Assembly (NCBI GenBank): GCA_964507055.1
Contig: CAZDOJ010000001.1
Coordinates: 206,793 to 270,792 of the forward strand
From: an uncultured Gammaproteobacteria bacterium
Lineage (GTDB): Bacteria > Patescibacteriota > Microgenomatia > Levybacterales > UBA12049
Length of the DNA stretch: 64,000 nucleotides
Direction: 5' to 3'
The translations under genes were made by a program, and so were the position numbers. The notes beneath the pieces are model-generated. The model was given only the letters and a program-made list of their open reading frames with translations. It was not told the DNA's origin and ran no database searches. Shown one piece after another: positions 1-48,456 of this stretch; position 1 is the stretch's first letter; each line of letters opens with the position of its first letter.

Positions 1-482
1 ATTTCAGTAGGTTTCACTGTCACAGATGGATTCTCTACTCCTGCAAGTTTGAGATTGGTTTTATCTGCTAAGCCATTGATATATGCCTGAATTCCTGCTG
101 TTGCCTGGGGATTTGCCTGTGAAGTTGTAATATCAATTTGATATTGTGGTGGATCACTTTCTCTTGTTTGCACTTCAATAATGCCAGCCAGATTACCTTG
201 CTTAATCTTATTTTCAAGTTGCTCTTGTGAAGCTTCTTCAAGTTTTACGTAATGCTGCTGCTTAATTGTTTGTACAATTGGATTATTTTGATCGCTTCCT
301 GATGGGATACCTAGTGCAAGTTGGGGTGTGTTATTTCCAATAAATCCAAAGACACTGATAAAAACTATTGGGAAAAGGAAACCAAATGCAAACGTAGCAG
401 GGTTTCTTGTCTGTGCCAAAAAGAAATACTTCATCATTGTGATGAATGCTCGAAATTGATTTTGTGGTTTATAATTTTTCAT
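1..482 (-). CDS. ABC-2 type transporter permease (partial; C-terminal part lies beyond the window start)
   Basis: Minus-strand frame running off the window edge (not in ORF track because truncated). Hand translation from the ATG at ~480-482: MKNYKPQNQFRAFITMMKYFFLAQTRNPATFAFGFLFPIVFISVFGFIGN..., i.e. a short cytoplasmic N-term then a TM helix. It lies immediately downstream of and co-oriented with the ABC ATPase gene. Confidence 0.55.
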   Translation of the reverse strand, partial: MKNYKPQNQFRAFITMMKYFFLAQTRNPATFAFGFLFPIVFISVFGFIGNNTPQLALGIPSGSDQNNPIVQTIKQQHYVKLEEASQEQLENKIKQGNLAGIIEVQTRESDPPQYQIDITTSQANPQATAGIQAYINGLADKTNLKLAGVENPSVTVKPTE

Positions 483-497
483 AGTAATGCGTCTGAT

Positions 498-1274
498 TTA
501 AGCTTCACGTAACTGCCTTCCGGTTAAATTCAAAAATACATCTTCAAGGTTTGCTGGTTCTGGTTTGACTTCTTTTTTGAACCCAGATTTCAATAAATCT
601 TTAATAAATGAATTTGGGGTTCCGGTTTTCATGATCTTTCCATGATCCATTATCGCCAACCTGTCACAAAGCTGTTCTGCTTCATCCATATAGTGGGTTG
701 TAAGAACGATAGTGACTCCTGACTTATTTACTTTACGTACCATTTCCCAAAGATGGATTCGTGCTTGGGGATCAAGTCCTGTTGTTGGTTCATCGAGGAA
801 GATTACTTTTGGTTTGTTAATTAATGTGGATGCAATTGAGAATCGTTGCTTTTGTCCACCTGAAAGCTGTTTGACATAATTCTTTGCTTTATCTTCGAGT
901 TCTACTTCGCGGAGCATTTCCATAGGATTGATGTGGACATCATACATGGCGGCAAACATATCGAGAAGTTCAACGAGGGTCAGTTCTGGGTAGAATGCAC
1001 TTGATTGGAGCTGAACTCCAATTCTTCTTTTTACTTCCCATGGATGTTCTTTAACATCAATTCCATCGATAAGGACTTCTCCACTCGTTAAGTCTTTGAG
1101 TGTCTCCATGATTTCAAGTGTTGTGGTTTTGCCTGCTCCATTAGGTCCGAGGATTCCGAAGATTTCACCAGGCTTTACTGAAAAACTTATACCATCAACG
1201 GCTGTAAAATTTCCATATCTTTTTATGAGGTCTTTTACAATAATTATGTCTTTCATAATTTTAAATTGTAGCAC
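498..1274 (-). CDS. ABC transporter ATP-binding protein
   Basis: Walker A GPNGAGKTTT, ABC signature LSGGQKQR, Walker B IFLDEPTTGLD, H-loop region; 258 aa. Confidence 0.9.
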   Translation of the reverse strand: MLQFKIMKDIIIVKDLIKRYGNFTAVDGISFSVKPGEIFGILGPNGAGKTTTLEIMETLKDLTSGEVLIDGIDVKEHPWEVKRRIGVQLQSSAFYPELTLVELLDMFAAMYDVHINPMEMLREVELEDKAKNYVKQLSGGQKQRFSIASTLINKPKVIFLDEPTTGLDPQARIHLWEMVRKVNKSGVTIVLTTHYMDEAEQLCDRLAIMDHGKIMKTGTPNSFIKDLLKSGFKKEVKPEPANLEDVFLNLTGRQLREA

Positions 1275-1718: not shown

Positions 1719-2357
1719 CTAAGCAAGCAAGGTCTTTTTACTCTCTTCGACAAATTTTTTCCCATGACCTACCGATGTATTCACAAGTATACCTTTTGCA
1801 CATAATGGACAATCTGCTTCATCAAAAGTTTCAGTTTTCAGTTCAGCAAGCCATCTGAGTGGTGCTCCAACTAATTCACTTGTTACTTCTTGCGGGTTCT
1901 TATTTACCATGACACTCACGCCAACGACATTTCCACCGATTGCCTTAACACTTTCAACGACTTTCTTTACTGAGCCGCCGGTGGTTGTGAGATCTTCTAT
2001 AACCAAAACATTTTTGCCTGTTACGAGCCTGTCGTAGCCTCTTGTGAATACTTGGTTTTTGTCTGGAGTTTTTTCCGTATAGATTCCAAGCACTTCTTTC
2101 CCTTTGAGCTTACTCAAGTGATACGCTGTCCACGTTGATAGGATGATTCCTCCAAGTGCTGGAGCTGCGACGACATCTACATCAAGATCTTTGTTTTGTT
2201 CTGCAAAAAGTTCTCCCATTTTCGAAGTTGCCTCGGTGTGGGGATACAAGGCGTCTTTGTTAATATATGTTGCCATATGTCGGCCTGATGTTCCCACAAA
2301 ATGATCGTCTGTGAGGACTGCTTTGGTTTGTTTTAATAGTGCAAGTGCTTCATTCAT
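1719..2357 (-). CDS. pyrE: orotate phosphoribosyltransferase
   Basis: PRTase PRPP-binding motif VLVIEDLTTTGGS; ~210 aa; directly downstream of and overlapping pyrF by 4 nt (operon). Confidence 0.8.
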   Translation of the reverse strand: MNEALALLKQTKAVLTDDHFVGTSGRHMATYINKDALYPHTEATSKMGELFAEQNKDLDVDVVAAPALGGIILSTWTAYHLSKLKGKEVLGIYTEKTPDKNQVFTRGYDRLVTGKNVLVIEDLTTTGGSVKKVVESVKAIGGNVVGVSVMVNKNPQEVTSELVGAPLRWLAELKTETFDEADCPLCAKGILVNTSVGHGKKFVEESKKTLLA

Positions 2358-3208
2358 AGTCTATATTTATTTATCTCATCTCTTAGTTTTTGCGTTTCTT
2401 CGCGTGCTTTCTCTGCAAAGTCATTGCTGTCTGATGCAAAGATAATACCTCTTGAAGAATTAATAAGAAGTCCAGCAAATTCTGCATTGAGACCAGCTGC
2501 GACAAATGACTCGATATCTCCACCTTGGGCTCCAACACCCGGAACAAGAAATGTCATATTCCCTACTATCTCACGGATTCTTGTCAATTGTCCGGGGTAT
2601 GTTGCTCCCATAAACATCATTGCATTGGGATTCTTTCCGTGTTGCTTGACGAGCTCTTCGGCGACTACTTCATAAAGAGGCAAGCCATCCTCCATGATGA
2701 GTTCCTGAAATTCTTTTGCACCAGCGTTTGAGGAATGGCAACCTATAATAACGCCCTTCCCTTCACGTTCAAAAAAGGCATCAAGTGACTCAATACCCAT
2801 GTATGGCATAACAGTTATTGCGTCTGCACCGAAATAATCAAAAACGAGTTTTGCATATCCTTCATTGGTGTGTCCTATATCCCCTCTTTTGGCATCAATG
2901 ATAATTGGGATTTCTGGATATGTTCCATGAATGTATTCACAAGTCATTTTGAGTTCTCGTATCCCGACATCACCCCGAGCTTCATAAAAAGCAGGATTTG
3001 GCTTATATACCGCAACAAGATCATGTGTTGCATCAATTATAGCTTTATTAAATTCAAACTGAGGATTATCGAGTTTTTTAATATGCGCAGGAAGCTTATC
3101 GACATCTGAATCGAGTCCGACACACACAAGAGAATTATTTTGTTTTATCAGGTTAGTGAGTTTTGTGTGAAAATCCATAAATTGGAGCGATAACTCTTGC
3201 TTTTGCAA
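2354..3208 (-). CDS. pyrF: orotidine 5'-phosphate decarboxylase (long/type-2 form)
   Basis: OMPdecase motifs VCVGLDSD and IIIDAKRGDIGHT (Asp-Lys-x-x-Asp); 284 aa. Confidence 0.8.
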   Translation of the reverse strand: MQKQELSLQFMDFHTKLTNLIKQNNSLVCVGLDSDVDKLPAHIKKLDNPQFEFNKAIIDATHDLVAVYKPNPAFYEARGDVGIRELKMTCEYIHGTYPEIPIIIDAKRGDIGHTNEGYAKLVFDYFGADAITVMPYMGIESLDAFFEREGKGVIIGCHSSNAGAKEFQELIMEDGLPLYEVVAEELVKQHGKNPNAMMFMGATYPGQLTRIREIVGNMTFLVPGVGAQGGDIESFVAAGLNAEFAGLLINSSRGIIFASDSNDFAEKAREETQKLRDEINKYRL

Positions 3209-3260: not shown

Positions 3261-4148
3261 TTATAATGTCTTATTAGGACCGTCCGTATCATTTTTTCCC
3301 GCCCAATCAATATCAAGTTTATCAAGATCTACCGGTTCAACTAAATCCGGCACACTATATAAATATCCCATTCCCCAAACTTTTTCGCTATCATTTGTTA
3401 TAGTTGATGATTTACCTGCAAATTCTTCTGTTGTTTGGTTTTCCTGAATTTTTCTAACTTTCTCTGCTGCTGTATCTATCACTTCTGTACTTTGTGGTTG
3501 GTCTTTTTGAATGGCTTCCTCTAATTGGAAATATTCGTTTGTGCGAATTGGAAGTTTTCCATCATTAGCCCCATGCCGTATATCAAAGAATTTTGTACGG
3601 CGTCCTGAGAGCATTGTTCTGAATGTTGCAAAGGCAATTTCATCGATATCTATACCTCTTCCCTCGATACGTCTTTCGTTTGCGATTGCAATTTCCCTTG
3701 CTAATCGTGCGTCTTCTTCTGCAATTAATGTAAGAAGTGGATCTGCTTTCCCTTCATATTTTTCTTGTTCCCTAAAACTCACTAGAGTAACGCCATCCTC
3801 TTGGTCGCTTCTTCCCGTTTTTTCTCTTGCATCCAATTCTCTTTTTCTCTCACTCGTCAGTGCAAATTCTGCCATTCCAGCACCTGATTTGGCAAAATCA
3901 ATTTGATGTGGAACTGCCTCAAATGCGTTGGGTAAAATAATCTTCCCATGAAAAGAATGTCGTTGCATTCCATCCTCATCTCTCGTGTGAAGCTCTAGCC
4001 CTCCTATTGTTCCCTCCGGGAGAATAACAAACTTACCAGGTACTTGTTGTGCTTGTACAGCTGATGCTCCATCTAATCGGCTTTTGAAACCCATAGCATC
4101 ACGTCCTGATTTCACAAATTCTTCAAATTTATTCATAATAGTTGACAA
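3261..4148 (-). CDS. hypothetical protein, paralog 1 of a trio with a conserved C-terminal peptide (...DIDWAGKNDTDGPNKTL)
   Basis: 295-aa ORF with no signal peptide or TM. Shares an internal core with the 5383-6618 product (LP.G..GLEL / ..PHQI....KSG[AS]GMA / R[RK]...RGI.[IV]DE). The acidic Trp-containing tail is shared with both downstream paralogs. Confidence 0.6.
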   Translation of the reverse strand: MSTIMNKFEEFVKSGRDAMGFKSRLDGASAVQAQQVPGKFVILPEGTIGGLELHTRDEDGMQRHSFHGKIILPNAFEAVPHQIDFAKSGAGMAEFALTSERKRELDAREKTGRSDQEDGVTLVSFREQEKYEGKADPLLTLIAEEDARLAREIAIANERRIEGRGIDIDEIAFATFRTMLSGRRTKFFDIRHGANDGKLPIRTNEYFQLEEAIQKDQPQSTEVIDTAAEKVRKIQENQTTEEFAGKSSTITNDSEKVWGMGYLYSVPDLVEPVDLDKLDIDWAGKNDTDGPNKTL

Positions 4149-4232
4149 TTTTATCAGAAATTAAAAAGTATATCAAATTATATCTTTTATCTCTTTGGCT
4201 CAAAGTTGCTGGATTGATCATAATCTCATAGA

Positions 4233-5363
4233 TTATAAAGAAGTACGTGGTCCACTTTCGCTTTCATTTTCTCCCGCCCAATCAACCTGTATTGCCTCTA
4301 TCGGAGCATCCAGGTCTTGGAAGTTTGGCATCTTCTTATTATCATAGAGATCGAGTATTCTCTGTGGTATTTTGTCTACAATCGTTGCTGCGTATTCATA
4401 AACAATTGGTCTTTGTGTCCCATCTGCCCCCGGCATTTTATGGATAGCTGGACACGATCCTTGGGTAAATACTGTTGTTTCTAAGGTCTTTCGTTGTTCG
4501 TCAAGTGGTTTTCCTTCTAATTCGATTGGATGTTGCTCCGCAAAATCATGGAGATGCGTACGCATAAGCTGGAATCCTACTCCATCACGATCTAAGAATT
4601 CATGTCTTACAGCTGCGGGAATGTCTTCTCCTGTCTCTGCAGCCTCTGTCACTACTTCTTGGAGAAACTTTCGGAAAGTTCCTATCCCAGTTGCAGCAAA
4701 GTACGTTCGTGTAAGAGATTTATGGGCTATAAAACCATGATTATCAAATGCTGCAAGGTTGCCAATTACATTAACCTGACTTTGAGGGAATGTATATGAT
4801 GTTTCTTCTAACGCACTTGCTAAGATCTCTTGTGTGTTCTCAAAATATCCATCGAGTGAATATATTTCATCATCAGGTATATCCGTGAGAGCCGTTGCTA
4901 CCTGCGGGAGTGCTCTTTCCATTTTCTCAGCATGAATTTTTCTATATGTTCCTCGAAACAGAGGATGGTGTATAAATAATGCTGCAAGTGTTGTTGTCCG
5001 TATATTGCTTTGGCGATAATGTTCTTGCCTCATGTCAAATCGGTCTCCATCTGATCTATATTTTGATTCTTCTGCACGAAGTTCTAAGCCATGATCTAAT
5101 AGCTCAGTTGCTGCTGCAAAAAAAAGGTCTTGTTCTGAATGCGAATCTTGTTCCTGGCTCGTAGATGGGTCTTTCCGATATTTTCCCTCGAGTCCTTTAA
5201 AGAATTGTAAGTCGTCTTTGTGTATCGTATCGAATTTGGGTGCATATCTCTTATACTCCTTGGGTAATAACACATGACCAAATCGTGGAATTGGTTCAGA
5301 TTTCACTGTATTAATCTTTTTCGCTGTTGGTGTTATTGGTTGTTCACTTTCAAAAAGTCTCAT
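4233..5363 (-). CDS. hypothetical protein, member 2 of the trio (C-terminus ...IQVDWAGENESESGPRTSL)
   Basis: Track ORF 4233-5405. The first 14 codons are the reverse reading of the upstream gene's tail, so the internal Met (MRLFESEQPITP) at ~5363 is preferred. The body is unrelated to the neighbours, but the last ~18 aa are conserved and the last 29 nt are identical to the 3' end of gene 5383-6618. Confidence 0.55.
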   Translation of the reverse strand: MRLFESEQPITPTAKKINTVKSEPIPRFGHVLLPKEYKRYAPKFDTIHKDDLQFFKGLEGKYRKDPSTSQEQDSHSEQDLFFAAATELLDHGLELRAEESKYRSDGDRFDMRQEHYRQSNIRTTTLAALFIHHPLFRGTYRKIHAEKMERALPQVATALTDIPDDEIYSLDGYFENTQEILASALEETSYTFPQSQVNVIGNLAAFDNHGFIAHKSLTRTYFAATGIGTFRKFLQEVVTEAAETGEDIPAAVRHEFLDRDGVGFQLMRTHLHDFAEQHPIELEGKPLDEQRKTLETTVFTQGSCPAIHKMPGADGTQRPIVYEYAATIVDKIPQRILDLYDNKKMPNFQDLDAPIEAIQVDWAGENESESGPRTSL

Positions 5364-5382
5364 ACTATCTCCTTTTAAACAT

Positions 5383-6618
5383 TTATAAAGAAGTACGTGG
5401 TCCACTTTCGCCTTCGTCCTCTCCAGACCAATCTATATCTGCTGAGAAAAGTGTGTCAGATAGTGCATCAGGTAATTGATACTGATCCGTTTCTGGCTTT
5501 TGGAATGCTTCCGAGCTGTCTCCAGGAGCACTGGCGTGTGGTGAGTTCGATCGTTCAGAACGTCGTGAACTCTTTCCCTCCACCTGTATCCCAAGTCCAC
5601 CCGGGAGTATTATGCTAATACCGTTGTCTGTAACATCGATATTTGGTACATATCCAGTATTTTCCGGCATGGGTCTTGGTTGATGATTTCCCCACCGTCT
5701 TGTACGTGTTGTATGTCCTTCAGATTGTTCAATATCAAATGCAGGTTCTTCTCCTGTGGCATTTATCCTTGCAGTAGCAATACCTTTAGAAAATTCTTCT
5801 AATACCTTTGCATGATCTTCTTTTGTAGTAACATATACTTCTTCAAGATCGTCAGTGTAAACAGGTAAATCTCCACCTCGACGTAAATCAACTATTCGTT
5901 TTCGTTCTCCTTGGATACCTATTACAAGATAAACTTTTGATACTTCATCAACTCTGATTCCTCTCGCTTCAAATTTCTTCTTATGAGGAGCTAATAGTCG
6001 TTGTGCTTCATATCGTTCATTCTTTTCGACAGTATCTTTATATAGGGGCTGTTTTTCTTCTAAGTTGTCGAATGCATCTCGATTTATTACTCCACCACCT
6101 ACAAAGCCTGGTGTTCCTTCAATTCTTGTAAACATTCCTAATCTTCCATAAAGTCGACTTATATTTAGCTCTGCTTCACGTAAGTGTGGATTAGATGGCA
6201 CAAGCAGTGCCATTCCAGAACCCGATTTATCCATAGAACTTATTTGATGCGGACTAACTTCAATTTCTCTGGGAAGTGTAATGATATTTGTTAGAGGTTG
6301 CGTTCTCTGTCCAGGATATTCGAGTAACAATCCAACACGAGTTTGAGGTGGAAGTAACAAGTACCGACCTTGTCTCCCTGCCCGTTGGACAGATGTTGCG
6401 TCAATTAAGCTTGGATTGGTACTTTCATGAAAGCTTCTTAAAGCTCGCTCAGCAAAATTTTGTCCGTTGGTTGGTTTTGGATTTGGTGCTCGATACTTCC
6501 CATACCTTGTGTACCAAGTGTGATCAACGGCTCCAACTGCTATAAATTCCGGAGCATGCTTCTCCATGAACCCTTCATGAATATCGGGAGCTTGTCTATC
6601 TATTTCTCGTCTTGCCAT
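5383..6618 (-). CDS. hypothetical protein, paralog 3 of the trio (C-terminus ...DIDWSGEDEGESGPRTSL)
   Basis: 411-aa ORF. Central region is homologous to the 3261-4148 product. A long S/E/P/R-rich low-complexity linker precedes the conserved C-terminal peptide. Confidence 0.6.
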   Translation of the reverse strand: MARREIDRQAPDIHEGFMEKHAPEFIAVGAVDHTWYTRYGKYRAPNPKPTNGQNFAERALRSFHESTNPSLIDATSVQRAGRQGRYLLLPPQTRVGLLLEYPGQRTQPLTNIITLPREIEVSPHQISSMDKSGSGMALLVPSNPHLREAELNISRLYGRLGMFTRIEGTPGFVGGGVINRDAFDNLEEKQPLYKDTVEKNERYEAQRLLAPHKKKFEARGIRVDEVSKVYLVIGIQGERKRIVDLRRGGDLPVYTDDLEEVYVTTKEDHAKVLEEFSKGIATARINATGEEPAFDIEQSEGHTTRTRRWGNHQPRPMPENTGYVPNIDVTDNGISIILPGGLGIQVEGKSSRRSERSNSPHASAPGDSSEAFQKPETDQYQLPDALSDTLFSADIDWSGEDEGESGPRTSL

Positions 6619-6667
6619 AATGGGGCATTATAACAAATAAATAGAGGCAGGACAAACTTATGGGACG

Positions 6668-7732
6668 TTACTTTTGGGATTTAATTTCCTGTGCCATCAA
6701 TGGGTTCCACATAGCACCGGTTGCAGACATGACTGCATCAGCACCAGATTTGCGGAATTGTTCATAATCATCAACCGTTGTTACTCCTCCAACTCCTATT
6801 AATGCAAAATCTAAATCATTTTCATCTCGAAGACGCTTGAGTCTTTCGATCATTTCGATTCCCGCCCATTTAATGGGAGCTCCACAAACACCACTAATTG
6901 CTCTTCCTGCTCCTGGCAGTGCTTGTTTGCCTTCTTTATCAATAATTTTTGATGGGATAGTATTTATTGCGGAAATACCTTGGATGAGCTTTCCGACTGC
7001 GTCAATAAGGTTGATAAGTTGCTCTTGTTCTTGAAAATATGCAATCTTTATTATTAATGGTGTGTCTCCAATTTCGTCCTTTATTGCTGTAACAACTTGT
7101 TGTGTTCGCTCTAAGTCAAAACAAAGAAGATGTGCAGTGCCTTCATTTGGGCAACTTAGGTTTACCTCAAGTACTTTAGCACCTGTTTCTTTCACTAATC
7201 TTGCAGCGTCTGCAAAGTCTTTAATATATGCTTTGATATTACCATCAGCATTGGTCGTCCCCTGAAAACTTCCAACGACCACTTGTCCAGTCTTTGCATA
7301 TGCTACTGTTTCTTGCAAATCTTTTTGCCAAAAATCAGGATCAAATGAGGGTACGCCGAATGAATTAGTAATTGCCAATGGCTGTTCATAATTATGATCC
7401 GCAACCAATCCCATTGCTCCTTTTTCTGGTGTGAGATCGCCTTCAACTTTGACTGCTAAAACATTTGGCCATGGTGCACACGTATATTTTTGTGTGCGGA
7501 CCGTTTTATACACTGGGATATCAAAACCTTTGTCTAAAGCAGCTTTCACAAATTTTCCATTCACTAATGGACCGGCTGGTATTCCAAATGGTGTAAAGAC
7601 TTTCTGACCCAAAAAATCAAATTGAGGTTTACCTTTTTGCTCGTAAACTTTACCATCGGTAAAAGCTCCAAAAGGTCCTTCATTAAAATTCTCTTCGTAG
7701 GATTTTTCCGGGTCGTAGAAGGGAGTGTTCAT
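6668..7732 (-). CDS. pyrD: dihydroorotate dehydrogenase, class 1-like (catalytic Cys)
   Basis: Active-site motif LEVNLSCPN (Cys base = class 1), FMN-binding C-terminal GGV..VDDYEQF..GA.AV; N-terminal FTPFGIPAGP. 354 aa, so a DPD/PreA-like relative cannot be excluded. Confidence 0.7.
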   Translation of the reverse strand: MNTPFYDPEKSYEENFNEGPFGAFTDGKVYEQKGKPQFDFLGQKVFTPFGIPAGPLVNGKFVKAALDKGFDIPVYKTVRTQKYTCAPWPNVLAVKVEGDLTPEKGAMGLVADHNYEQPLAITNSFGVPSFDPDFWQKDLQETVAYAKTGQVVVGSFQGTTNADGNIKAYIKDFADAARLVKETGAKVLEVNLSCPNEGTAHLLCFDLERTQQVVTAIKDEIGDTPLIIKIAYFQEQEQLINLIDAVGKLIQGISAINTIPSKIIDKEGKQALPGAGRAISGVCGAPIKWAGIEMIERLKRLRDENDLDFALIGVGGVTTVDDYEQFRKSGADAVMSATGAMWNPLMAQEIKSQK

Positions 7733-9111: not shown

Positions 9112-9942
9112 TTAATTTTCCCAGCCTTCCTCTAGAACATTGGTAAGGCAATGCGGGCCCCCTCCGGATTTCATGAATTCGCCCATTTCCACTTCAACTG
9201 ATGTATAGCTCAAGTCTTCAATCTTTTTCTTAAACGTAGGGTTGCCTGATTGATGGACTACATGATGATCTGTCACAACCGAGTTGGCTGCAAAGCCATT
9301 TGCTTCTTCTTGTGTGAACTCAATAAGATTTGGCACTAATTTTTTGAGCACTTCCCTACTCTTTTCTGAAAATGCAGGCGGATAGTAAAATGCGGTGTCA
9401 TTATTTAACGGTAAAAATCCGACATCTAAGTGGTAGAACTTTGGATCAACTATTTCAATTGGAATAACTTCGATGTTGAGAAGTTTACTGACCGCATCAC
9501 AGGTTTCTTTATTGGCTCGATATCCAAGTCCAACTAATAATTTATCTCCCCAAAAGAATGAATCTCCATTACCTTCGAGGTAAATATCATCAGGAAGATG
9601 TTTAATAGTGTATCCATTATTTCGAAACCACTGCTCGTAGTGTGGGGTCTCGCCTTTGCGTTCATCACACCAAAATCTGCTTAGTAAAACTGTTTTATCT
9701 TTTACGATTCCCTGATCTGTCGCAAAAACCATATCTGGAACACCTCTCTGTTGTTTGATGACTTCGACTTCTATGTCTTGGGATTCATATGCTTTGACAA
9801 GATCGTTCCACTCGTTCATAGCTTTTTTACCATTAATAGTGCCGGGTTTCATCCAAGGATTGATGGAATAATCGAGGGTATCAAAGTACGTAGGTTCGCA
9901 CATCAGAACCTTTTTGATGAGTTTGTGTTTCATAGCCGCCAA
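9112..9942 (-). CDS. amidinotransferase-superfamily enzyme (DDAH/arginine-deiminase/amidinotransferase fold)
   Basis: C-terminal catalytic-Cys motif GGGPHCLT; FYHLDVGF; ~276 aa. Confidence 0.6.
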   Translation of the reverse strand: MAAMKHKLIKKVLMCEPTYFDTLDYSINPWMKPGTINGKKAMNEWNDLVKAYESQDIEVEVIKQQRGVPDMVFATDQGIVKDKTVLLSRFWCDERKGETPHYEQWFRNNGYTIKHLPDDIYLEGNGDSFFWGDKLLVGLGYRANKETCDAVSKLLNIEVIPIEIVDPKFYHLDVGFLPLNNDTAFYYPPAFSEKSREVLKKLVPNLIEFTQEEANGFAANSVVTDHHVVHQSGNPTFKKKIEDLSYTSVEVEMGEFMKSGGGPHCLTNVLEEGWEN

Positions 9943-9946
9943 TTAA

Positions 9947-11560
9947 TTATACTCTTGCTGCCTGAAGTTTGTTAACAAAATCCTGGGCAACGGGGACACT
10001 TGTGATGAGATGGGTGTTATGTTCTATAGCTTTTTGGCGAATTATTTTGCCATCTGTTTGAGTCTTTTCTCGTTCCATAGGGACATTAATAATTAAATCA
10101 AAGCGCTCAACATTCATAAGATCTCCAAGATTTGGCTTCAAATGAGGCTCTGAAATTTTGTGGACTGCAATTGCTTCAATAGCATTTGTCTTAAGGAACT
10201 TATGAGTTTTGTATGTTGCGTAGATCTTGTAACCCATATCCTGAAGCTTTTTCACAGTTGGAAGCAATTTTACTTTATTTGACCGTTTACCGACTGAAAT
10301 AAGTACTGTTTTCTCTGATCGTTGTGCAAGTTTCATCGGAAGTGTATAGAATTCTATGAAGCCTGCTGAAGCGTTTTGGTTGAGGCCTTCGGAAACCATG
10401 AACGTGGCAAGCTTTTCATCAAAAATTGTATTGGGTGTTTCAAGTGCCATGACTTGTACAACACCTTTGTATAATTTGAGTGTCACTTTACCTGTAACCT
10501 TTTGATTGACGTTATCAATGAATGCATTTAAGTCATTCATCAATGGTTCGTACCAAAGTGCACCGTAACAAAGATATGCCCACTTGGCATCAACAGTCGC
10601 TTTAAATTCATTCTCAGTTCGTGTACAAACATAATGTTCAAGCTTTTCATGAGCTGAGATAATAATTTCAGCAGCCGGTGCTTCAAAGACATCTCGGATC
10701 TTCATACCAATGACACGATCTTCTATGTGAATATTGATACCTACTCCATGCTTTCCTCCTATGCCGTTTAGTTTCATAATCAGATCAGCAAGTTTCATTT
10801 GATCTCCATTGAGTGCAACGGGGATACCTTTTACAAATTCAAGCGTTAACATTTCTGGTTTATCGGGAGCTTTTTCAGGAAGCGTGCTTACAACAAGAAT
10901 TTTCTCAAGTGGTGGAATTTTTGATGGATCTTCTATCTCTCCCCCTTCGCCTGATGATCCCCACATATTCTCATCGTATGAGTAAGGTTTATCAACTGTA
11001 TGAGGGACAGGGATGCCATGTTCTTTTGCATATGCAAGCTCTTCAAGTCGTCCCATACTCCATTCTCGGATTGGTGCGATTATCTTGATATCAGGATTCA
11101 ATGCAAGTGCTGAACCCTCGATACGGATTTGATCGTTACCGCGACCTGTGCATCCGTGGGCGATTGCGTCAGCACCTTCCATCGCAGCAATTTTCACTGC
11201 CCATTTCGCGAGAAGTGGGCGGCCAATTGCTGTTGCGAGTCTGTATTTATGTTGATAATTTGCATTTGCTTTGATTCCTTTGGAAATATATTCGTTGGCA
11301 AATTCTTCTTTGGCATCGATAACATATGTTTTAACTGCACCGAGTTTGATAGCTTTTTGTTTGATTGCTTCAAGATCATCGACTACCTGTCCAATGTCTA
11401 TTGTGAGTGCGACAACTTCTGCTTTGTATTCTTCTTGGATCCATTTGAGAAGTACTGAGGTATCGAGTCCGCCGGAGTAAAGTAGTACCACTTTCTTCAC
11501 TTCACCTTTTTTACCTTCATATGAAGCGACTTTATGGTATGTAGAGTTATTTTTATCCAT
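9947..11560 (-). CDS. argG: argininosuccinate synthase fused to a C-terminal MGS-like domain
   Basis: N-terminal PP-loop VVLLYSGGLDTS and the ArgG body. The extra ~130 aa C-terminal segment (TVLISVGKRSNK...YKIYATYKTHKFL...) resembles the methylglyoxal-synthase-like domain seen in CarB and PurH. Confidence 0.8.
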   Translation of the reverse strand: MDKNNSTYHKVASYEGKKGEVKKVVLLYSGGLDTSVLLKWIQEEYKAEVVALTIDIGQVVDDLEAIKQKAIKLGAVKTYVIDAKEEFANEYISKGIKANANYQHKYRLATAIGRPLLAKWAVKIAAMEGADAIAHGCTGRGNDQIRIEGSALALNPDIKIIAPIREWSMGRLEELAYAKEHGIPVPHTVDKPYSYDENMWGSSGEGGEIEDPSKIPPLEKILVVSTLPEKAPDKPEMLTLEFVKGIPVALNGDQMKLADLIMKLNGIGGKHGVGINIHIEDRVIGMKIRDVFEAPAAEIIISAHEKLEHYVCTRTENEFKATVDAKWAYLCYGALWYEPLMNDLNAFIDNVNQKVTGKVTLKLYKGVVQVMALETPNTIFDEKLATFMVSEGLNQNASAGFIEFYTLPMKLAQRSEKTVLISVGKRSNKVKLLPTVKKLQDMGYKIYATYKTHKFLKTNAIEAIAVHKISEPHLKPNLGDLMNVERFDLIINVPMEREKTQTDGKIIRQKAIEHNTHLITSVPVAQDFVNKLQAARV

Positions 11561-11650
11561 TTTTAATAATTTAAAGAAAATTTACTAAAATTATGCATTT
11601 TAAAGCAGAGTTTTATTCAAATTTTTCTTTATTATGGTAATAATATAGAA

Positions 11651-11692
11651 AAATGAATATTGTGTCAACAGGTGAATTGTAATAATTTGTCA
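11651..11692. promoter_or_regulatory. two adjacent imperfect ARG-box-like TGAAT half-site pairs in the divergent argG / amidinotransferase intergenic region
   Basis: aaTGAATATTGTGTCAac and ggTGAATTGTAATAATTt, starts 20 nt apart (typical ArgR operators are two 18-bp boxes separated by 2-3 nt). Match to consensus TnTGAATwwwwATTCAnw is partial. Confidence 0.25.
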
Positions 11693-11711
11693 TATTTAGT
11701 ACACTTGCGCT

Positions 11712-12638
11712 ATGAAGCAATCGGCCGACACAATTGTCATGGTTTCACCTGATCACTTTGGCTTTAATCCCCAAACTGCTGCGACTAATCCATATATGCA
11801 TACACCCGAGTCTATGCATAAGAGTGCTCAAGATATTCGCAATCTTGCTTTAAAAGAATTTGATCAAATGGTTGCTGTTCTTCGTGCAAAAGGTATTGAT
11901 GTACTAGTTTTGCCAAGTCGATCGGATGTTGTTACACCTGATGCAGTTTTTCCAAATAATTGGTTCTCTCACCATGAAGATGGACGTTTGGTCCTTTATC
12001 CTATGCTGACGCCAAATCGAAGACAAGAGCGACAATGTGATGCTCTTGTTGAATTGCTCCGAAGTGCACAGATAGAGCATCCAGCAATTGTTGATTTGAG
12101 TGTAAGTGAAGAACAAGGATTAATTCTTGAATCAACAGGAAGTATGGTTTTGGATCGAGTTCATAAGGTTGTCTTTGCTATGGCATCTCCGCGAACCAAT
12201 GAAGAGTTATTTCAAAAATGGTGCACACAAATGGGATATGAAGGCATATATATAAAAACGCCAAAAAGTCATCGTAATGAGGTTTATCATACAAATCTGC
12301 TTATGAGTATCGGAACAGAGTTTGCAGTGGTTTGTCTTGAAGTTATTGAAAATGAAACGGAACAAAAGCATGTACGAGAAAAACTTGAAAGTTTGGACAA
12401 AGACCTGATCGAGATTTCTCTTGAGCAAGTCTATTCCTATTGTGGAAATATTCTTGAAGTTCGTTCAAAGAGTGGGCAAACATATATTGTTATGTCCAAG
12501 ACTGCTGAATCTGTATTTACTGTAGATCAAAGAGAACATTTGGAAAAGTATGGCGAGATTATTCGTTTGGATATTCCAGTTATTGAAGAAGTCGGTGGCG
12601 GTGGTGTCCGTTGTATGATGGCAGAAATTTTTGTTTAA
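11712..12638 (+). CDS. arginine-deiminase-related amidinotransferase-superfamily hydrolase (citrulline-forming or citrulline-utilising type)
   Basis: N-terminal MVSPDHFGFNP, C-terminal GGGGVRCMMAEIF (catalytic Cys); 308 aa. Confidence 0.6.
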   Translation: MKQSADTIVMVSPDHFGFNPQTAATNPYMHTPESMHKSAQDIRNLALKEFDQMVAVLRAKGIDVLVLPSRSDVVTPDAVFPNNWFSHHEDGRLVLYPMLTPNRRQERQCDALVELLRSAQIEHPAIVDLSVSEEQGLILESTGSMVLDRVHKVVFAMASPRTNEELFQKWCTQMGYEGIYIKTPKSHRNEVYHTNLLMSIGTEFAVVCLEVIENETEQKHVREKLESLDKDLIEISLEQVYSYCGNILEVRSKSGQTYIVMSKTAESVFTVDQREHLEKYGEIIRLDIPVIEEVGGGGVRCMMAEIFV

Positions 12639-16763: not shown

Positions 16764-19385
16764 TTAGGCTTTGGTTTGTTCTGGGGCTTTTTCTGGTCCT
16801 GGTTGATCCTCAATGCATGTTGCACTTGCTACACCATCAGATGTGTGTGAAAATCTCATCAAGATAACACCTTGTGTGTCTCGAGAAAGCTTCGGGATCT
16901 GATTGATTGGTAACTTCACAATCTGGCCCTTCTTACTTGTGATGATCACTTCTTCACTCTTTGCTGGGATAACTTGTGCCACGACAACTGAACCGGTTCT
17001 ATCAGTTACCTTTGCAACTTTCACACCTTGACCACCTCTTCCCTGTTGTGGGAATTGTGCAACTGGAGTTTTCTTTCCGAGACCATTTTCCATGATTGCC
17101 AAGACGTCTGGGTTATCTCCCTTTGAAATAACGTCCATGCCGATGACTTGATCTTTACTATCAATCTTAATTCCTCGAACACCCGTTGTTGCTCGGCCGA
17201 GTGGTCGGACTGAATCTTCGGAGAATTTGATTGATTTACCGCCACGTGTGATGATGAGGATGTCACTCTTACCATCAGTGATATTACTCCAAACCAATTC
17301 ATCTCCAGTATCAAGTTTGATCGCGATCATACCGTTTCTTCGGATATTTTCAAATTCTTTGATATGCGTCTTCTTTACAGTACCGTTTCTTGTGGTAAGG
17401 AAAACGTATCCGTCTTTAACAGCTTTGTTATGAACGATGAATGATTCAACTTTTTCACCTGATTCTATATTAAGTAAGTTCACAATAGCTGATCCTTTAC
17501 TTGTTCGTGAGCTTTCTGCAATTTCATATGCTCTCAATTGGTATGCTTTTCCTTTGTTGGTAAAGAAGATTATATTGTCGTGCGTTTGTGCCGAGCGGAT
17601 GTGGAAAATACCATCTTCGTCTTTGACATTCATACCTGTGATACCTTTTCCTCCCCGATGTTGTGTATGGAATGCATTCATTGATTGTCTCTTGATATAA
17701 CCAGTATTGGTCAATGTAATAACAGTTGGTTCATTAGGGATCAAATCTTCTTCTGAGAATTCATCAACCTTACTCTTGTAGACTTTGGTTCGTCGTGGAT
17801 CTGCGTACTTTTCTCGGAGTTTCAATAATTCGTCTTTGATAACAGTCATAATTTTTTCGCCATGAGCCAAAAGATCTTCGAGGTATGCGATATTGTCTTT
17901 AACCATCTTTAATTCATCTTCAATCTTTTGTCGTTCCAATGCGGCAAGTCTTCGAAGCTGCATATCTAAGATTGCAACAGATTGGAGTTCACTCAAAGTG
18001 AACTTTGACATCAAGTTCTGCTTCGCATCTTCCTGATCTTTAGAAGCACGGATTGTTGCGATGACTGCATCGATATGGTCGACTGCGATCTTCAAACCTT
18101 CAAGGATATGAAGACGTGCCTTTGCAACCTTGAGTTCATATTCGGTTCTCTTGGTGATGACGATGTATCGGTGCTTGAGATATTCTTCAATGATAAGTTT
18201 CAAATTCAATGTCTGAGGTGTTCCATCGACAAGTGCTACCATATTGCACGGGAAAGATGTTTGGAGTGCTGTTTGCTTGTACAAATTGTTAAGTACTTTC
18301 TTTGGTGTCGCATCTCTCTTAAGTTCTACATAGATTCTGAGTCCTCGTCGGTCAGATTCGTCTCGAAGATCTGAGATACCATCAAGCTTTTTATCTTTTG
18401 CGAGATCAGCAATTCTTGCGATAAGGTTTGCTTTATTAACCTGATATGGAAGTTCGGAGATGATGATTGCTGATTTTCCATTGCCTACCTCTTCGATCTC
18501 TGTCTTTCCTCTGATGATGATCTTACCTCGTCCTGTTACATAAGCATTTCGGATTTCAGTGATGTCATAAATAGAACCTGCTGTTGGGAAGTCTGGACCT
18601 TTTACAAATTCGAGAAGTTCATCGATGGTCACGTCACATGTGAGTACTGCTGGTTCTTCAGCAAGAGATGTTGTCTCAGCAGCATTTGTTACAACTTCTG
18701 GTGCTTGGCCATTGTGTTCAAGTTCACGATTTGCGAGATCTTGTACAGCGGTTGTATTTGTTGCTGATGCGTCTAATGCAGTTCTTGTCTTACCAATTGT
18801 GTAAACGATCGCGTCAATAACTTCACCCAAATTATGTGGTGGAATCTTGGTCGCCATACCAACAGCGATACCTTCTGCTCCCATAAGTAAAAGATTTGGA
18901 AGCTTTGCAGGTAGGTAAAGCGGTTCGTGTTCTGATCCGTCAAAGTTTGGTCCGAAATCGACTGTTTCTTTATCAATATCAGTCATAAGTTCTGAGGTGA
19001 TTGCCTGCATGCGAGCTTCGGTGTAACGCATATGTGCTGGTGAATCTCCATCAATTGAACCGAAGTTACCTTGACCATCAACGAGTGGATATCGCATTGA
19101 AAAGTCTTGTGCCAAACGAACAAGTGAATCATAGATAGGTGCGTCACCATGAGGGTGATATTTACCCATAACTTCTCCAACAATCTTTGCACTCTTTGTA
19201 TATTTTGCAGAGTGAGTAAGATTCATATCATGCATACCGTAGAGAATTCTTCGGTGTACAGGTTTTAATCCATCGCGGACGTCAGGAAGAGCACGTTGGA
19301 CGATAACAGACATCGCATAATTCAAATACGATTTCTTCATTTCCTCAGTGATGTTAATTAATTGTAGTTTTCCGATATCACTCAT
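16764..19385 (-). CDS. gyrA: DNA gyrase subunit A
   Basis: [26 protein letters not shown] (catalytic region), GyrA-box-containing C-terminal beta-pinwheel repeats. Carries a ~50-aa T/A/E-rich insertion before GPDFPTAG. Confidence 0.95.
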
Positions 19386-19397
19386 ATAAGGTGTAAA

Positions 19398-19934
19398 TTA
19401 GAAGCCCTCTTTGTTGAAGCGTTCGATGCATTCATTGATGATGCCCTTTGCTTCTTCAACGTCTCCCCAACCAAGTACTTTGGTTGTTCCTGGTTTTTTC
19501 AGATCTTTATAATGTGCAAAATGGAATTCGATTTGTTGCTGCCATCTTTTACCAAGGTCATCAAGTGTGTTGACACTATCACCTGTATGTCGATCATCAG
19601 CTGGAACGCAGACGATCTTGTAATCCATTTCTCCGTCATCTTCAAAATTGAAAATACCGATGACTTTGGACTTAACGAGGACGCCTGTTGGAATTGGTTC
19701 ATGACATACAAGAAGGACGTCCAATTCATCACCATCTTCATCTTTGGTTGCTGGGATAAATCCGTAATTGACTGGCTTTGCAAAGATCGCTGGTTCTGCT
19801 CGATCAAGCATAAAAATGCCATGTTCTCGATCGTATTCAATTTTTAATGAGGATCCTTGTGGGATATCAACAATTGCATTAACCCATCCTTCATTTGGGC
19901 TCCCTGGTGTAAGTATTTTATTAAAATCTGGCAT
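19398..19934 (-). CDS. ppa: inorganic pyrophosphatase (family I)
   Basis: DELDVLV, KIVCVPADD and HFFAHYKDL-type motifs. Track ORF extends to 20072 (TTG) but overlaps gyrB; the internal ATG (MPDFNKIL) is preferred. Confidence 0.85.
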   Translation of the reverse strand: MPDFNKILTPGSPNEGWVNAIVDIPQGSSLKIEYDREHGIFMLDRAEPAIFAKPVNYGFIPATKDEDGDELDVLLVCHEPIPTGVLVKSKVIGIFNFEDDGEMDYKIVCVPADDRHTGDSVNTLDDLGKRWQQQIEFHFAHYKDLKKPGTTKVLGWGDVEEAKGIINECIERFNKEGF

Positions 19935-19959
19935 AGTTTTCTTAAAAATTATTATAACA

Positions 19960-21963
<2,004 letters not shown>

Positions 21964-24460: not shown

Positions 24461-25429
24461 TTACTCGATGCAGAACCTTTGGTAATTTTCTTGAGGGGTT
24501 GATTTTGATTTATAGGCGAAAGTTTTATATTCGGTATCGGCACCTGGGCCTATATGTATAAGCTTGGTTATTCCAACATTGAACGTAACTTGCGATGGCA
24601 TCTCATATTTTCCTGAGTAACATCCAGAAGCTGCAAAATACTTAATTCTGTGAGCACCTTTTGTAAGCAAGTGCCTCATCAGTGGACCTTCTCCATCGAT
24701 CTGGACGCCACCAAATGTGCCATCAGAGTTATAATCACTTACAACTTCGTATTCTCCATCTTCAGGGACATTTACTGTAGCGTCAATTATAAACGAATTC
24801 TTATTTGCGGATTCAGTGATGTCTGTAATTGTAATTGCTTCTAACTTCTCTCTTCTATTGTTGTCGGTATTGATCATAGAAAAATATTGATACGTTAAAA
24901 TTGAGACTAGGCCTAAAGAAATGCAGCCTAAAATAAGTGGAATCTTAAATTCTTCTGTTATAACTCTTTTGGTACTTTTTGCGTAGATGAAATGTGCAAA
25001 TTTGAAGCATATATATATAAACGAAAAAAAGATTGCGATAGATACTATCCAGGGGTCCAAGATAAATAGTAGTTGTACAGGTACGTTTGGTATTGAACTA
25101 AGAGTAGTCCATGCAAACGATCCAAAATTAAAACCAAGATATACTCCAAGGATAATTCCAGGAAGCTCTACCCATAGTGGGTAGCCTGAACGCTTATCAA
25201 TACGATATGAAATATAAAAAGATAAAGGAATTATAGTTAGACATAATATAGCAAAGGTTGCTCCAATTATTGTCAATGCTAAAAATCCGCCCAAGCCTTG
25301 GTACATCTCGAGAGGAATCTTCTGTATAACAAGAACAGTACCTACACAGATAAGAATGAATCCAACTAGGAGACTGTAAAGTAGCGTAGAGCGTTTACGA
25401 GTTACTGGTGGCTGTGCTTCATTTTCCAT
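24461..25429 (-). CDS. hypothetical polytopic membrane protein with C-terminal soluble domain
   Basis: About 6-7 predicted TM helices in the N-terminal 200 aa, followed by a ~120-aa Cys-containing beta-rich tail. Confidence 0.45.
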   Translation of the reverse strand: MENEAQPPVTRKRSTLLYSLLVGFILICVGTVLVIQKIPLEMYQGLGGFLALTIIGATFAILCLTIIPLSFYISYRIDKRSGYPLWVELPGIILGVYLGFNFGSFAWTTLSSIPNVPVQLLFILDPWIVSIAIFFSFIYICFKFAHFIYAKSTKRVITEEFKIPLILGCISLGLVSILTYQYFSMINTDNNRREKLEAITITDITESANKNSFIIDATVNVPEDGEYEVVSDYNSDGTFGGVQIDGEGPLMRHLLTKGAHRIKYFAASGCYSGKYEMPSQVTFNVGITKLIHIGPGADTEYKTFAYKSKSTPQENYQRFCIE

Positions 25430-29993: not shown

Positions 29994-30061
29994 AGCGGTA
30001 TTGCTTATTATACTCCATTCTTTTCTTGACTTGCCTGAGCTTATTTCATACTATTAGACTA

Positions 30062-31801: not shown

Positions 31802-31820
31802 ACTACTATTTAACTAGACC

Positions 31821-32888: not shown

Positions 32889-32899
32889 ACAGAATATGT

Positions 32900-46060: not shown

Positions 46061-46085
46061 ATCCTTCGACTTCGCTCAGGATGAC
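46061..46085 (-). repeat. copy 1 of a short intergenic repeat gtcatcctgagcgaagtcgaaggat (read on minus strand); overlaps the pilD ATG
   Basis: Same 25-mer, with a 10-nt GAA-pentamer-like insertion, recurs on the plus strand at 60538-60580. Confidence 0.4.
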
Positions 46086-48455: not shown

Positions 48456-48456
48456 T

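What the first reader, a model, noticed from the sequence alone, without database searches (positions are those of the whole stretch)
3261..6618. Three tandem unknown genes inside the pyrimidine cluster share a conserved C-terminal peptide, and two share 29 identical 3' nucleotides
Three co-oriented minus-strand genes lie between pyrD (6668-7732) and pyrF-pyrE (1719-3208): 3261-4148, 4233-5363 and 5383-6618. All three proteins end in a near-identical acidic, Trp-containing peptide: ...LDIDWAGKNDTDGPNKTL, ...IQVDWAGENESESGPRTSL and ...ADIDWSGEDEGESGPRTSL. The peptide is preceded by an S/E/P/R-rich low-complexity linker. Genes 2 and 3 carry the identical 29-mer ttataaagaagtacgtggtccactttcgc at their 3' ends (4233-4261 and 5383-5411), although their bodies are unrelated. 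That points to gene conversion or recent transplantation of the tail. Proteins 1 and 3 are also paralogous through a central core: S..D..S.Q....G...LP......GL.L ... [IL]P...E.[VS]PHQI....KSG[AS]GMA ... R[RK]...RGI.[IV]DE[IV]. None has a signal peptide or TM segment, and I recognise no family. The arrangement of folded domain, disordered linker and conserved terminal peptide resembles FtsZ and SSB C-terminal docking peptides, so a shared binding partner or processing enzyme is plausible. Insertion of such a family into pyrD...pyrF-pyrE is unusual.
Basis: seen in the sequence. Interest (0 to 1): 0.78.

Follow-up and report, generated by a model that had tools for sequence, protein, structure and literature searches.

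The report
Orphan genes sharing a C-terminal tag
Four neighbouring genes of two unrelated, otherwise unknown protein families in a small (about 1.3 Mb) bacterial genome all end in the same roughly 20-residue acidic, tryptophan-containing peptide, which most likely acts as a shared address or docking tag whose reader has not been found.

Summary
Three minus-strand genes lie between pyrD and pyrF/pyrE: g1 3261-4136, g2 4233-5363 and g3 5383-6618. All three end in D-[IV]-D-W-[AS]-G, an acidic stretch, then [ST]-L-stop. g2 and g3 share 29 identical 3' nucleotides.

g1 and g3 are paralogues (family A). g2 is unrelated to them except in the tail. g2 has a 36%-identical paralogue, P0004, lying 620 nt beyond the window start, and it carries the tail too (family B).

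So the tail is ancestral in both families rather than recently transplanted. Identical codons show that neighbours have additionally been homogenised by gene conversion.

A tail profile scores 52-58 bits on the four proteins and at most 6.3 bits on every other ORF in the 85 kb I could read. Family A has no relative among 1.84 billion representative proteins. Pfam, NCBIfam, PHROGs, PADLOC, PDB and phage, plasmid and viral searches were all negative. AlphaFold models were unusable (pLDDT 40). The proteins have no signal peptide or transmembrane segment, and the 3' ends show no RNA structure.

Best reading: a modular protein-level recognition peptide, read by one common partner, probably for export or targeting. 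This is inference. The organism and the genome-wide count of the tail remain unknown.

The parts
5383..6618 (-). g3, family A orphan protein (411 aa, = P0001). N-terminal extension, conserved core, S/R/E/P-rich linker, C-terminal tail.
   Evidence: ORF. Identical public gene call. Only relative in 1.84 billion representative proteins is g1. No Pfam or NCBIfam hit.
4233..5363 (-). g2, family B orphan protein (376 aa, = P0002). Predicted all-helical at low confidence. Starts 19 nt after the g3 stop, behind an AAAGGAG ribosome-binding site.
   Evidence: Only relative found is P0004, at 36% identity and 91% coverage. Its body is unrelated to family A.
3261..4136 (-). g1, family A orphan protein (291 aa, = P0003), paralogue of g3.
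   Evidence: BLASTP against g3 gives E = 4e-14. Alignments A2/A3. Gene call of 291 aa.
5383..5442 (-). Tail of g3: ADIDWSGEDEGESGPRTSL plus stop.
   Evidence: Tail profile scores 58.4 bits.
4233..4292 (-). Tail of g2: IQVDWAGENESESGPRTSL plus stop.
   Evidence: Tail profile scores 57.1 bits.
3261..3317 (-). Tail of g1: LDIDWAGKNDTDGPNKTL plus stop.
   Evidence: Tail profile scores 52.7 bits.
4233..4283 (.). g2 copy of the 51-nt repeat (88% identical to 5383-5433). Its first 29 nt (4233-4261) are identical to 5383-5411. Positions 4264-4285 are 95% identical to the g1 tail at 3289-3310, so the g2 tail is a mosaic.
   Evidence: Codon test gives P = 6.6e-5.
5383..5433 (.). g3 copy of the 51-nt repeat. 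Identity ends exactly at the stop codon, and the downstream sequences differ.
6627..6655 (-). Promoter-like site (TTGTCC, 17-nt spacer, TATAAT) between pyrD and g3. The -10 element ends 9 nt before the g3 ATG.
   Evidence: Consensus scan and sequence. The scan found 20 sites against 17 expected from shuffles, so this is weak evidence.
4148..4176 (-). Promoter-like site (TTGATA, 17-nt spacer, TAAAAT) in the 96-nt g2-g1 spacer.
   Evidence: Consensus match only.
6668..7732 (-). Context: pyrD-like gene (DHO_dh domain) directly upstream.
   Evidence: Precomputed Pfam.
1719..3178 (-). Context: pyrF-like (OMPdecase, 2354-3178) and pyrE-like (Pribosyltran, 1719-2357) genes directly downstream.
   Evidence: Precomputed Pfam and ORFs.
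1..1256 (-). Context: ABC-2-type transporter. The permease runs off the window start at about 1-482, and the ATPase is at 498-1256. The fourth tail-bearing gene, P0004 (424 aa, family B, ...DDIDWAGEDQEWSLKKSL*), lies convergent to the permease. It is 620 nt beyond the window start, at L100:10001-11275 (+).
   Evidence: Tail profile scores 55.5 bits on P0004.

Best explanation
**What is shown.** The locus is a lineage-restricted cluster of four genes from two unrelated orphan protein families:
- Family A: g1 and g3.
- Family B: g2 and P0004, the latter just outside the window.

Each product is a soluble, acidic protein with no Sec signal and no membrane segment. Each ends in the same module of about 20-35 residues:
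- an aromatic residue followed by P-[DA]-L;
- 6-9 variable residues;
- a hydrophobic residue;
- the invariant core D-[IV]-D-W-[AS]-G;
- five or six mostly acidic residues;
- a basic residue and [ST]-L at the free C-terminus.

The module is kept at the protein level, because P0004 encodes it with different synonymous codons. It has been exchanged between neighbouring genes by gene conversion: the g2 tail is g1-like in its 5' half and identical to g3 in its last 29 nt.

**What is inferred.** The module is a short linear recognition peptide read by one common partner. The carriers are fast-evolving orphan paralogues that lack a Sec signal, in a reduced genome. On that basis I favour a C-terminal targeting signal that hands these proteins to an export or delivery machine. 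This would be analogous in logic to the C-terminal signals of type IV and type I secretion substrates. The reader protein is unknown.
For: **The tail is specific and modular.**
- It is present and specific: a profile built from the four tails scores 52-58 bits on the four proteins and 6.3 bits or less on all 725 other stop-to-stop ORFs in about 85 kb.
- The bodies of families A and B are unrelated; hhalign aligns only the last 21 columns.
- The tail is ancestral in both families, because P0004 carries it.

**Selection acts on the protein, with conversion on top.**
- Synonymous differences are present: Leu TTA vs CTT, Ser TCT vs TCG, Ala GCG vs GCT, Ile ATT vs ATA, Glu GAA vs GAG. D-W-x-G and the final L stay invariant.
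- Gene conversion is supported: 29 of 29 nt are identical, P = 6.6e-5 given the peptide.
- Cross-family tail identity (g2-g3, 13 of 17) exceeds within-family tail identity (8 of 18 and 7 of 18).

**The proteins fit the profile of Sec-independent substrates.**
- No signal peptide or TM segment; pI 4.9-5.8.
- Family A has only its own two members among 1.84 billion representatives.
- No hit in Pfam, NCBIfam, PHROGs, PADLOC, PDB, phages, plasmids or viral contigs.

**No RNA explanation.** The four 3' ends have no shared or unusually stable RNA fold (z-scores -0.3, -0.8, +2.3, -0.8).
Against: - No partner or secretion machine that reads C-terminal signals was seen in the 85 kb I could reach. Only type IV pilus genes and an ABC-2-type transporter are there.
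- Only four carriers are known, all within 8.6 kb. A general sorting signal would be expected on more proteins scattered around the genome. About 94% of the genome could not be read, so this is untested.
- Within each family the tail is not the best-conserved block. For example, FLDRDGVGFQLMRTH in family B is 89% identical against 39% for the tail.
- Structure prediction failed, so disorder of the linker is not established.
- The organism and its lifestyle are unknown.
Confidence: 0.45

Rival explanations
1. Intracellular docking peptide or degron. The tail tethers both families to one cytoplasmic hub, such as an AAA+ unfoldase or protease adaptor, or a TPR- or PDZ-like domain that grips the free ...[ST]-L carboxylate. 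It would work as the SSB and FtsZ C-terminal peptides or C-terminal degrons do. The proteins would never leave the cell.
For: The layout of body, variable linker and conserved extreme C-terminal peptide with an invariant aromatic residue in an acidic context matches this class. No secretion machine for C-terminal signals was seen nearby. The genes sit inside a housekeeping operon-like array.
Against: Known docking tails sit on conserved hub proteins, not on orphan paralogues (established knowledge of SSB and FtsZ). The motif matches neither DDDIPF nor D-I-P-x-F-L. The residue at position -2 is not conserved (T, K, K), so it is not a class I PDZ ligand. No PDZ or TPR gene appears in the 85 kb examined.
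Confidence: 0.22
2. Assembly element with no external reader. A and B proteins work as pairs (g3-g2 are adjacent and probably co-transcribed), and the common tail mediates A-B or homo-oligomeric contacts. Alternatively it is just a conserved terminal structural element, spread by duplication of an ancestral A-B pair and homogenised by gene conversion.
For: There are two A and two B genes. g3 and g2 are 19 nt apart with a ribosome-binding site between them. All carriers lie within 8.6 kb and none elsewhere in 85 kb. The tail is no better conserved than the cores within families.
Against: The bodies are unrelated, yet the tail is the only shared segment. That is easier to explain by one common reader. 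g1 and P0004 are not adjacent to a partner of the other family.
Confidence: 0.18
3. Cargo-loading peptide. The tail directs both proteins into a protein compartment, encapsulin-like or microcompartment-like.
For: Encapsulin cargo proteins carry short conserved C-terminal peptides after flexible linkers, and unrelated cargos can share them (established knowledge). The layout is similar.
Against: No encapsulin or shell-protein Pfam family is recorded among the called genes of the 85 kb; shell genes are normally adjacent to cargo. The motif is acidic with Trp, unlike the G-S-L-type encapsulin peptides. It contains G and P, so it is unlike the amphipathic helices of microcompartment encapsulation peptides.
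Confidence: 0.05
4. Nucleotide-level element. The shared 3' sequence is a functional RNA or DNA site (terminator, sRNA target, recombination site), and the peptide similarity is a by-product.
For: 29 identical nucleotides, the longest repeat in the window.
Against: Identity stops exactly at the stop codon. P0004 and g1 keep the peptide with different codons. No shared or stable RNA structure. No Rfam hit. No terminator-like site at these ends on the minus strand.
Confidence: 0.03

Closest known systems
C-terminal translocation signals of type IV secretion substrates (e.g. Legionella Dot/Icm effectors with Glu-rich 'E-block' tails; VirB/D4 substrates). From my own knowledge of the literature.
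   Same: The signal lies in the last 20-30 residues. It sits on otherwise unrelated, often lineage-specific, hydrophilic proteins without Sec signals. Acidic residues cluster about 8-15 residues from the end. Families are expanded by paralogy.
   Different: Dot/Icm signals are a compositional bias, not a discrete conserved motif with an invariant D-W-x-G. No type IV secretion genes were seen in the 85 kb read. The organism is unknown. A 2025 survey of type IV secretion in Patescibacteria (PMC12102498) names no effector or signal in the passages I read.
SSB C-terminal tail (DDDIPF) and FtsZ conserved C-terminal peptide. From my own knowledge.
   Same: Folded body, variable linker, then a short acidic peptide with a key aromatic or hydrophobic residue at or near the free C-terminus that docks onto partner proteins.
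   Different: Those tails belong to universal hub proteins and recruit many partners. Here the tail sits on four orphan proteins of two families, which suggests many clients and one reader. The sequences do not match.
Encapsulin cargo-loading peptides. From my own knowledge.
   Same: A short conserved C-terminal peptide after a flexible linker, shared by unrelated cargo proteins and encoded next to one another.
   Different: No shell gene nearby. The motif chemistry differs: acidic with Trp, against a small hydrophobic G-S-L type.
Type VII secretion composite signal (W-x-G plus Y-x-x-x-D/E). From my own knowledge.
   Same: The tails contain W-[AS]-G. Family A has Y-x-x-P-D 13-14 residues upstream (YSVPD, YQLPD).
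   Different: The order is reversed relative to type VII substrates, where W-x-G sits in a helical hairpin and Y-x-x-x-D/E follows the second helix. Family B does not keep Y-x-x-x-D/E. No FtsK/SpoIIIE-type ATPase gene in the 85 kb. Both motifs carry very little information.

Membership tests
SSB-Ct / FtsZ-CTP type hub docking tails | Motif consensus (D-D-D-I-P-F at the very end; or D-I-P-x-F-L-[RK]) | tested here: not met
   The tails read D-[IV]-D-W-[AS]-G-acidic...[ST]-L. The aromatic residue is 13-15 residues from the end, and no IPF or PxFL is present.
SSB-Ct / FtsZ-CTP type hub docking tails | Carried by a conserved OB-fold SSB or tubulin-like FtsZ body | tested here: not met
   No Pfam or NCBIfam domain in any of the four proteins. 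Family A has no relatives in 1.84 billion representatives.
Type I secretion substrates | Dedicated ABC exporter of the ABC_membrane (PF00664) type with a membrane-fusion protein, usually adjacent; often RTX repeats | tested here: not met
   The only nearby ABC system is ABC-2 type (PF12698/PF01061 permease plus separate ATPase). No HlyD-like gene in the 85 kb. No repeats in the proteins.
Type IV secretion substrates (C-terminal signal) | A type IV secretion system with coupling protein (VirD4/DotL or TcpA) in the genome | not testable with these tools
   Only about 6% of the 1.32 Mb genome could be read. None was seen there. The genome is not in the searchable genome collection.
Type IV secretion substrates (C-terminal signal) | Unstructured, charged C-terminal 20-30 residues sufficient for translocation | tested here: inconclusive
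   Net tail charge is -2 to -5, and the tails are hydrophilic. Sufficiency needs an experiment.
Sortase / exosortase / rhombosortase CTERM sorting signals | Signature motif followed by a hydrophobic transmembrane helix and a basic cluster; N-terminal signal peptide | tested here: not met
   Maximum 19-residue hydropathy is 1.11 or less. The tails are acidic, and the N-termini are hydrophilic.
Type IX secretion C-terminal domain | A 70-100 residue beta-sandwich CTD detectable by Pfam/TIGRFAM models, plus an N-terminal signal peptide | tested here: not met
   No Pfam or NCBIfam hit. The shared segment is only about 20-35 residues.
Encapsulin cargo | Encapsulin shell gene (HK97 fold, Linocin_M18) adjacent; G-S-L-type C-terminal peptide | tested here: not met
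   No such Pfam family among the called genes of the 85 kb. The motif differs.
Type VII secretion substrates | Helix-turn-helix with W-x-G in the turn, followed by Y-x-x-x-D/E; EssC/EccC ATPase present | tested here: not met
   The order of the motifs is reversed, and family B lacks Y-x-x-x-D/E. No WXG100 Pfam hit. No FtsK_SpoIIIE gene in the 85 kb.

The most novel reading that the evidence does not exclude
The D-[IV]-D-W-[AS]-G acidic tail is the substrate signal of a Sec-independent protein delivery route in a reduced-genome, possibly epibiotic or symbiotic, bacterium. Candidate routes are the monoderm-type type IV secretion system reported across Patescibacteria, or a pilus-linked route. 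The four orphan proteins would then be the first recognisable effectors of that route. The tail profile, which scores over 50 bits on members, would give a direct way to list the organism's effector repertoire.
Probability: 0.15. Interest if true: 0.8.

Novelty: new variant of a known kind. Interest (0 to 1): 0.5.

Why it matters
Short C-terminal tags shared by unrelated proteins are how cells address proteins to secretion machines, compartments, proteases and hubs.

Here the tag sits on proteins with no relatives in about 1.8 billion representative sequences, in a 1.3 Mb genome of an unidentified bacterium. If it is an export signal, it would give a sequence handle for finding effectors in a lineage where none are known. 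If it is a docking tag, it would point to an unrecognised hub.

The locus is also a clean small example of concerted evolution of a peptide module between unrelated adjacent genes. The limits are that only four carriers in one genome are known and no partner has been found.

Tried and rejected
1. **Domain libraries** (Pfam, NCBIfam, PHROGs, PADLOC) on all four proteins: nothing significant. The best hits were DUF5984 at E = 0.094 and a PHROG of unknown function at E = 0.002.
2. **PDB sequence and profile searches:** nothing.
3. **Exhaustive HMMER search with the g1+g3 profile** against 1.84 billion representatives: only the two query proteins. That profile did not recover g2 or P0004 by tail alone, so it says nothing about tail-only carriers elsewhere.
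4. **Word-index search with a tail alignment:** no candidates; the query was too short for the index.
5. **DNA pattern** GATTGGKCNGGNRANRANGAN{7,10}GGNCC gave 33 hits in genome contigs, 4 in viral contigs and 55 in metagenome contigs.
   - All hits are internal or out-of-frame chance matches. None lies at a C-terminus.
   - In hindsight the pattern was too strict, because P0004 lacks the G-P.
   - The source genome is not in the genome collection.
6. **Degenerate-pattern plus tblastn search** of viral contigs with both family alignments: none. tblastn against phage and plasmid records: none.
7. **AlphaFold2:** g2 alone gave pLDDT 40.2. g1 with g3 as its alignment gave pLDDT 40.1.
8. **Foldseek of the g1 model against PDB:** best E = 0.048, TM 0.12, which is meaningless. 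I ran no further search on such models.
9. **RNA-element idea:** rejected.
10. **Antisense ORFs** 4247-4447 and 5397-5618 both start inside the 29-mer. They share only MVHFR and are by-products of the repeat.
11. **Identifying the organism:** paper searches for the run accessions, the contig length and the genome size found nothing useful.
12. **Walking further along the contig:** not possible, because only window-encoded proteins can be looked up.


Full report
**Observation.** The ORF list and the sequence show three co-oriented minus-strand genes. They lie between a pyrD-like gene (6668-7732) and pyrF/pyrE-like genes (2354-3178 and 1719-2357; Pfam assignments).

| Gene | Coordinates | Length | Ending |
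|---|---|---|---|
| g3 | 5383-6618 | 411 aa | ...ADIDWSGEDEGESGPRTSL |
| g2 | 4233-5363 | 376 aa | ...IQVDWAGENESESGPRTSL |
| g1 | 3261-4136 | 291 aa | ...LDIDWAGKNDTDGPNKTL |

- Public gene calls start g1 at the ATG at 4136.
- It is part of a 51-nt repeat of 88% identity, the longest direct repeat in the whole window.
- The g2 tail also matches the g1 tail at 21 of 22 nt over the DWAGxN codons. So the g2 tail is g1-like in its 5' half and g3-identical in its 3' half.

**Relationships.**
- g1 and g3 are paralogues over essentially their whole length: BLASTP E = 4e-14, 26% identity over 229 residues. They share further landmarks W-G...G-Y and Y-x-x-P-D before the tail.
- g2 shares nothing with them but the tail.
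- A profile-profile comparison of the two family alignments aligns only the last 21 columns, at E = 6.6e-5.
- The word-index search with g2 found one relative, P0004: 424 aa, 36% identity, 91% coverage.
- P0004 is encoded on the same contig, 620 nt beyond the window start, on the opposite strand and convergent with an ABC-2 permease gene.
- P0004 ends ...LFTDDIDWAGEDQEWSLKKSL.

There are therefore two unrelated families: A (g1, g3) and B (g2, P0004). Each has two members, and all four carry the tail. The tail is old in both families, which argues against a recent transplant onto g2.

**Selection and gene conversion.**
- P0004 encodes the conserved residues with other codons: Leu CTT vs TTA, Ser TCG vs TCT, Ala GCT vs GCG. 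The g1 and g3 tails also differ from each other at synonymous sites. Conservation is therefore at the peptide level.
- The eight codons of ESGPRTSL in g2 and g3 are all identical. Given the same residues and the codon usage of 25 genes in the window, that has probability 6.6e-5. Identity ends at the stop codon.
- Tail identity across families between the neighbours g2 and g3 is 13 of 17. That is higher than within families: g1-g3 is 8 of 18 and g2-P0004 is 7 of 18.
- This is the signature of concerted evolution by gene conversion between adjacent copies of a short homologous module.
- An RNA or DNA element is not supported. There are no Rfam hits. The four 3' ends have no shared or unusually stable fold (z-scores -0.3, -0.8, +2.3, -0.8). 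No terminator-like site was found at these ends.

**Specificity.** I could read about 85 kb of the source genome: the window plus 11.9 kb on one side and 9.5 kb on the other.
- A 30-position profile built from the four tails scores 52.7-58.4 bits on the four proteins.
- It scores at most 6.3 bits on every other stop-to-stop ORF of 50 or more residues.
- The tail is therefore not a generic low-complexity ending. In the part of the genome I could see, it is confined to an 8.6-kb neighbourhood.
- The remaining 94% or so of the 1,318,932-bp genome could not be reached. The genome is not in the searchable genome collection: none of the three exact tail matches came back.

**What the proteins are.** All four are hydrophilic and acidic (pI 4.9-5.8), with no hydrophobic segment and no signal-peptide-like N-terminus.

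| Search | Result |
|---|---|
| Pfam, NCBIfam, PHROGs, PADLOC | nothing significant |
| PDB sequences and profiles | nothing |
| Phage and plasmid records, viral contigs | nothing |
| Exhaustive HMMER, family A profile vs 1.84 billion representatives | only g3 and g1 |
| AlphaFold2 on g2 alone, and on g1 with g3 | pLDDT 40 for both |
| Foldseek of the g1 model against PDB | noise |

- Family A has a beta-rich conserved core with the motifs L-P...E-x-x-P-H-Q-I and K-S-G-[AS]-G-M-A, then R-G-I-x-[IV]-D-E.
- Family B has strongly conserved blocks E-F-L-D-R-D-G-V-G-F-Q-L-M-R-T-H and R-P-I-x-Y-E-x-A-A-x-I-V-D.
- I recognise none of these motifs.

**Context.**
- The genes have the same GC content as their flanks. 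They sit in a tight same-strand array: pyrD, g3, g2, g1, pyrF, pyrE, a glyoxalase-like gene and the ABC-2 transporter.
- g3 and g2 are separated by 19 nt containing a ribosome-binding site. Promoter-like hexamers precede g3 and g1, but the scan found no more sites than expected from shuffles.
- Elsewhere the 85 kb encodes two type IV pilus loci without a secretin next to PilMNO, PBP1a, gyrB/gyrA, a SET-domain protein, and several amino-acid and nucleotide biosynthesis genes.
- TGA is used as a stop codon.
- This fits a reduced-genome, possibly monoderm-like bacterium, perhaps Patescibacteria-like. I could not verify the taxonomy.

**Explanation.** The following is shown: a modular C-terminal peptide of about 20-35 residues, under protein-level constraint, shared by two unrelated orphan families and exchanged between neighbours by gene conversion.

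The following is inferred: such a module exists because one common partner reads it.
- The carriers are orphan, paralogous, hydrophilic proteins without Sec signals in a small genome. That is the typical profile of substrates of Sec-independent delivery systems with C-terminal signals. I therefore favour a targeting or export signal.
- Overall confidence in "shared recognition peptide, probably targeting" is 0.45. The specific export reading alone is lower.
- Rivals are an intracellular docking tag or degron (0.22), an A-B assembly element without an external reader (0.18), a cargo-loading peptide (0.05) and a nucleotide-level element (0.03).

**Comparison with known systems.** The locus works most like C-terminal secretion signals and like the SSB, FtsZ and encapsulin-type tails. 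It is a member of none of them.
- The motif matches no known consensus.
- There is no transmembrane anchor, unlike sortase or exosortase signals.
- There is no 70-100-residue domain, unlike type IX secretion.
- There is no adjacent type I exporter and no shell gene.
- The W-x-G and Y-x-x-x-D resemblance to type VII signals is in the wrong order and is not kept in family B.
- A recent survey of type IV secretion in Patescibacteria (PMC12102498) reports the machinery as widespread. In the passages I read it names no substrates or signal, so the export reading would be new if it proved true.

**Verdict.** This is a real, statistically solid and extended observation. The proteins and the motif are unassigned to any known family. 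Interest is moderate (0.5). The feature is unusual and directly testable, but it is so far limited to four genes in one unidentified genome, with no partner identified.

Noticed in passing
window 30026-34105 (+) and 46081-52632 (+): Two type IV pilus loci. One holds PilB-like, PilT-like and PilC-like genes. The other holds a prepilin peptidase, five or six N-methyl pilin-like ORFs and PilM/N/O-like genes. No secretin gene follows PilMNO, which suggests a monoderm-like envelope (precomputed Pfam). PilB and PilT share a 33-nt, 82% repeat at 31321/32495.
   Followed up: partly
window 9112-12638: An argininosuccinate synthase fused to an MGS-like domain (537 aa, 9947-11560, minus strand). It is flanked by two DDAH/amidinotransferase-like genes (9112-9942 minus; 11712-12638 plus). 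This is an unusual arginine/citrulline gene arrangement.
   Followed up: no
window 41590-42171 (-): A SET-domain (lysine methyltransferase-like) protein of 193 aa next to an ornithine/DAP decarboxylase gene.
   Followed up: no
window 24461-25429, 40488-41588, 43406-44212, 61969-62439, 62490-63497: Five further sizeable ORFs (156-366 aa) without any significant Pfam hit. None carries the tail. Orphan genes therefore appear common in this genome.
   Followed up: partly
L100:2119-3395 (outside the window, about 8.5-9.8 kb before its start): A 1.28-kb AT-rich stretch without called genes. It holds at least six copies of TAGCCTCAAA-like words on both strands. No tRNA and no Rfam family. It could be a replication origin, an iteron array or a decayed element.
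   Followed up: partly
window 6619-6667: The -10-like TATAAT ends 9 nt before the g3 start codon, and no Shine-Dalgarno sequence lies between them. The g3 mRNA may therefore be leaderless or have a very short leader. g2, by contrast, has a canonical AAAGGAG.
   Followed up: no
window 4247-4447 (+) and 5397-5618 (+): Two antisense ORFs (66 and 73 aa) both start at a GTG inside the shared 29-mer and begin MVHFR. They diverge immediately afterwards. They are by-products of the repeat, not a gene family.
   Followed up: yes
window 16764-21954 (-): gyrB and gyrA are separated by an inorganic pyrophosphatase gene (precomputed Pfam).
   Followed up: no
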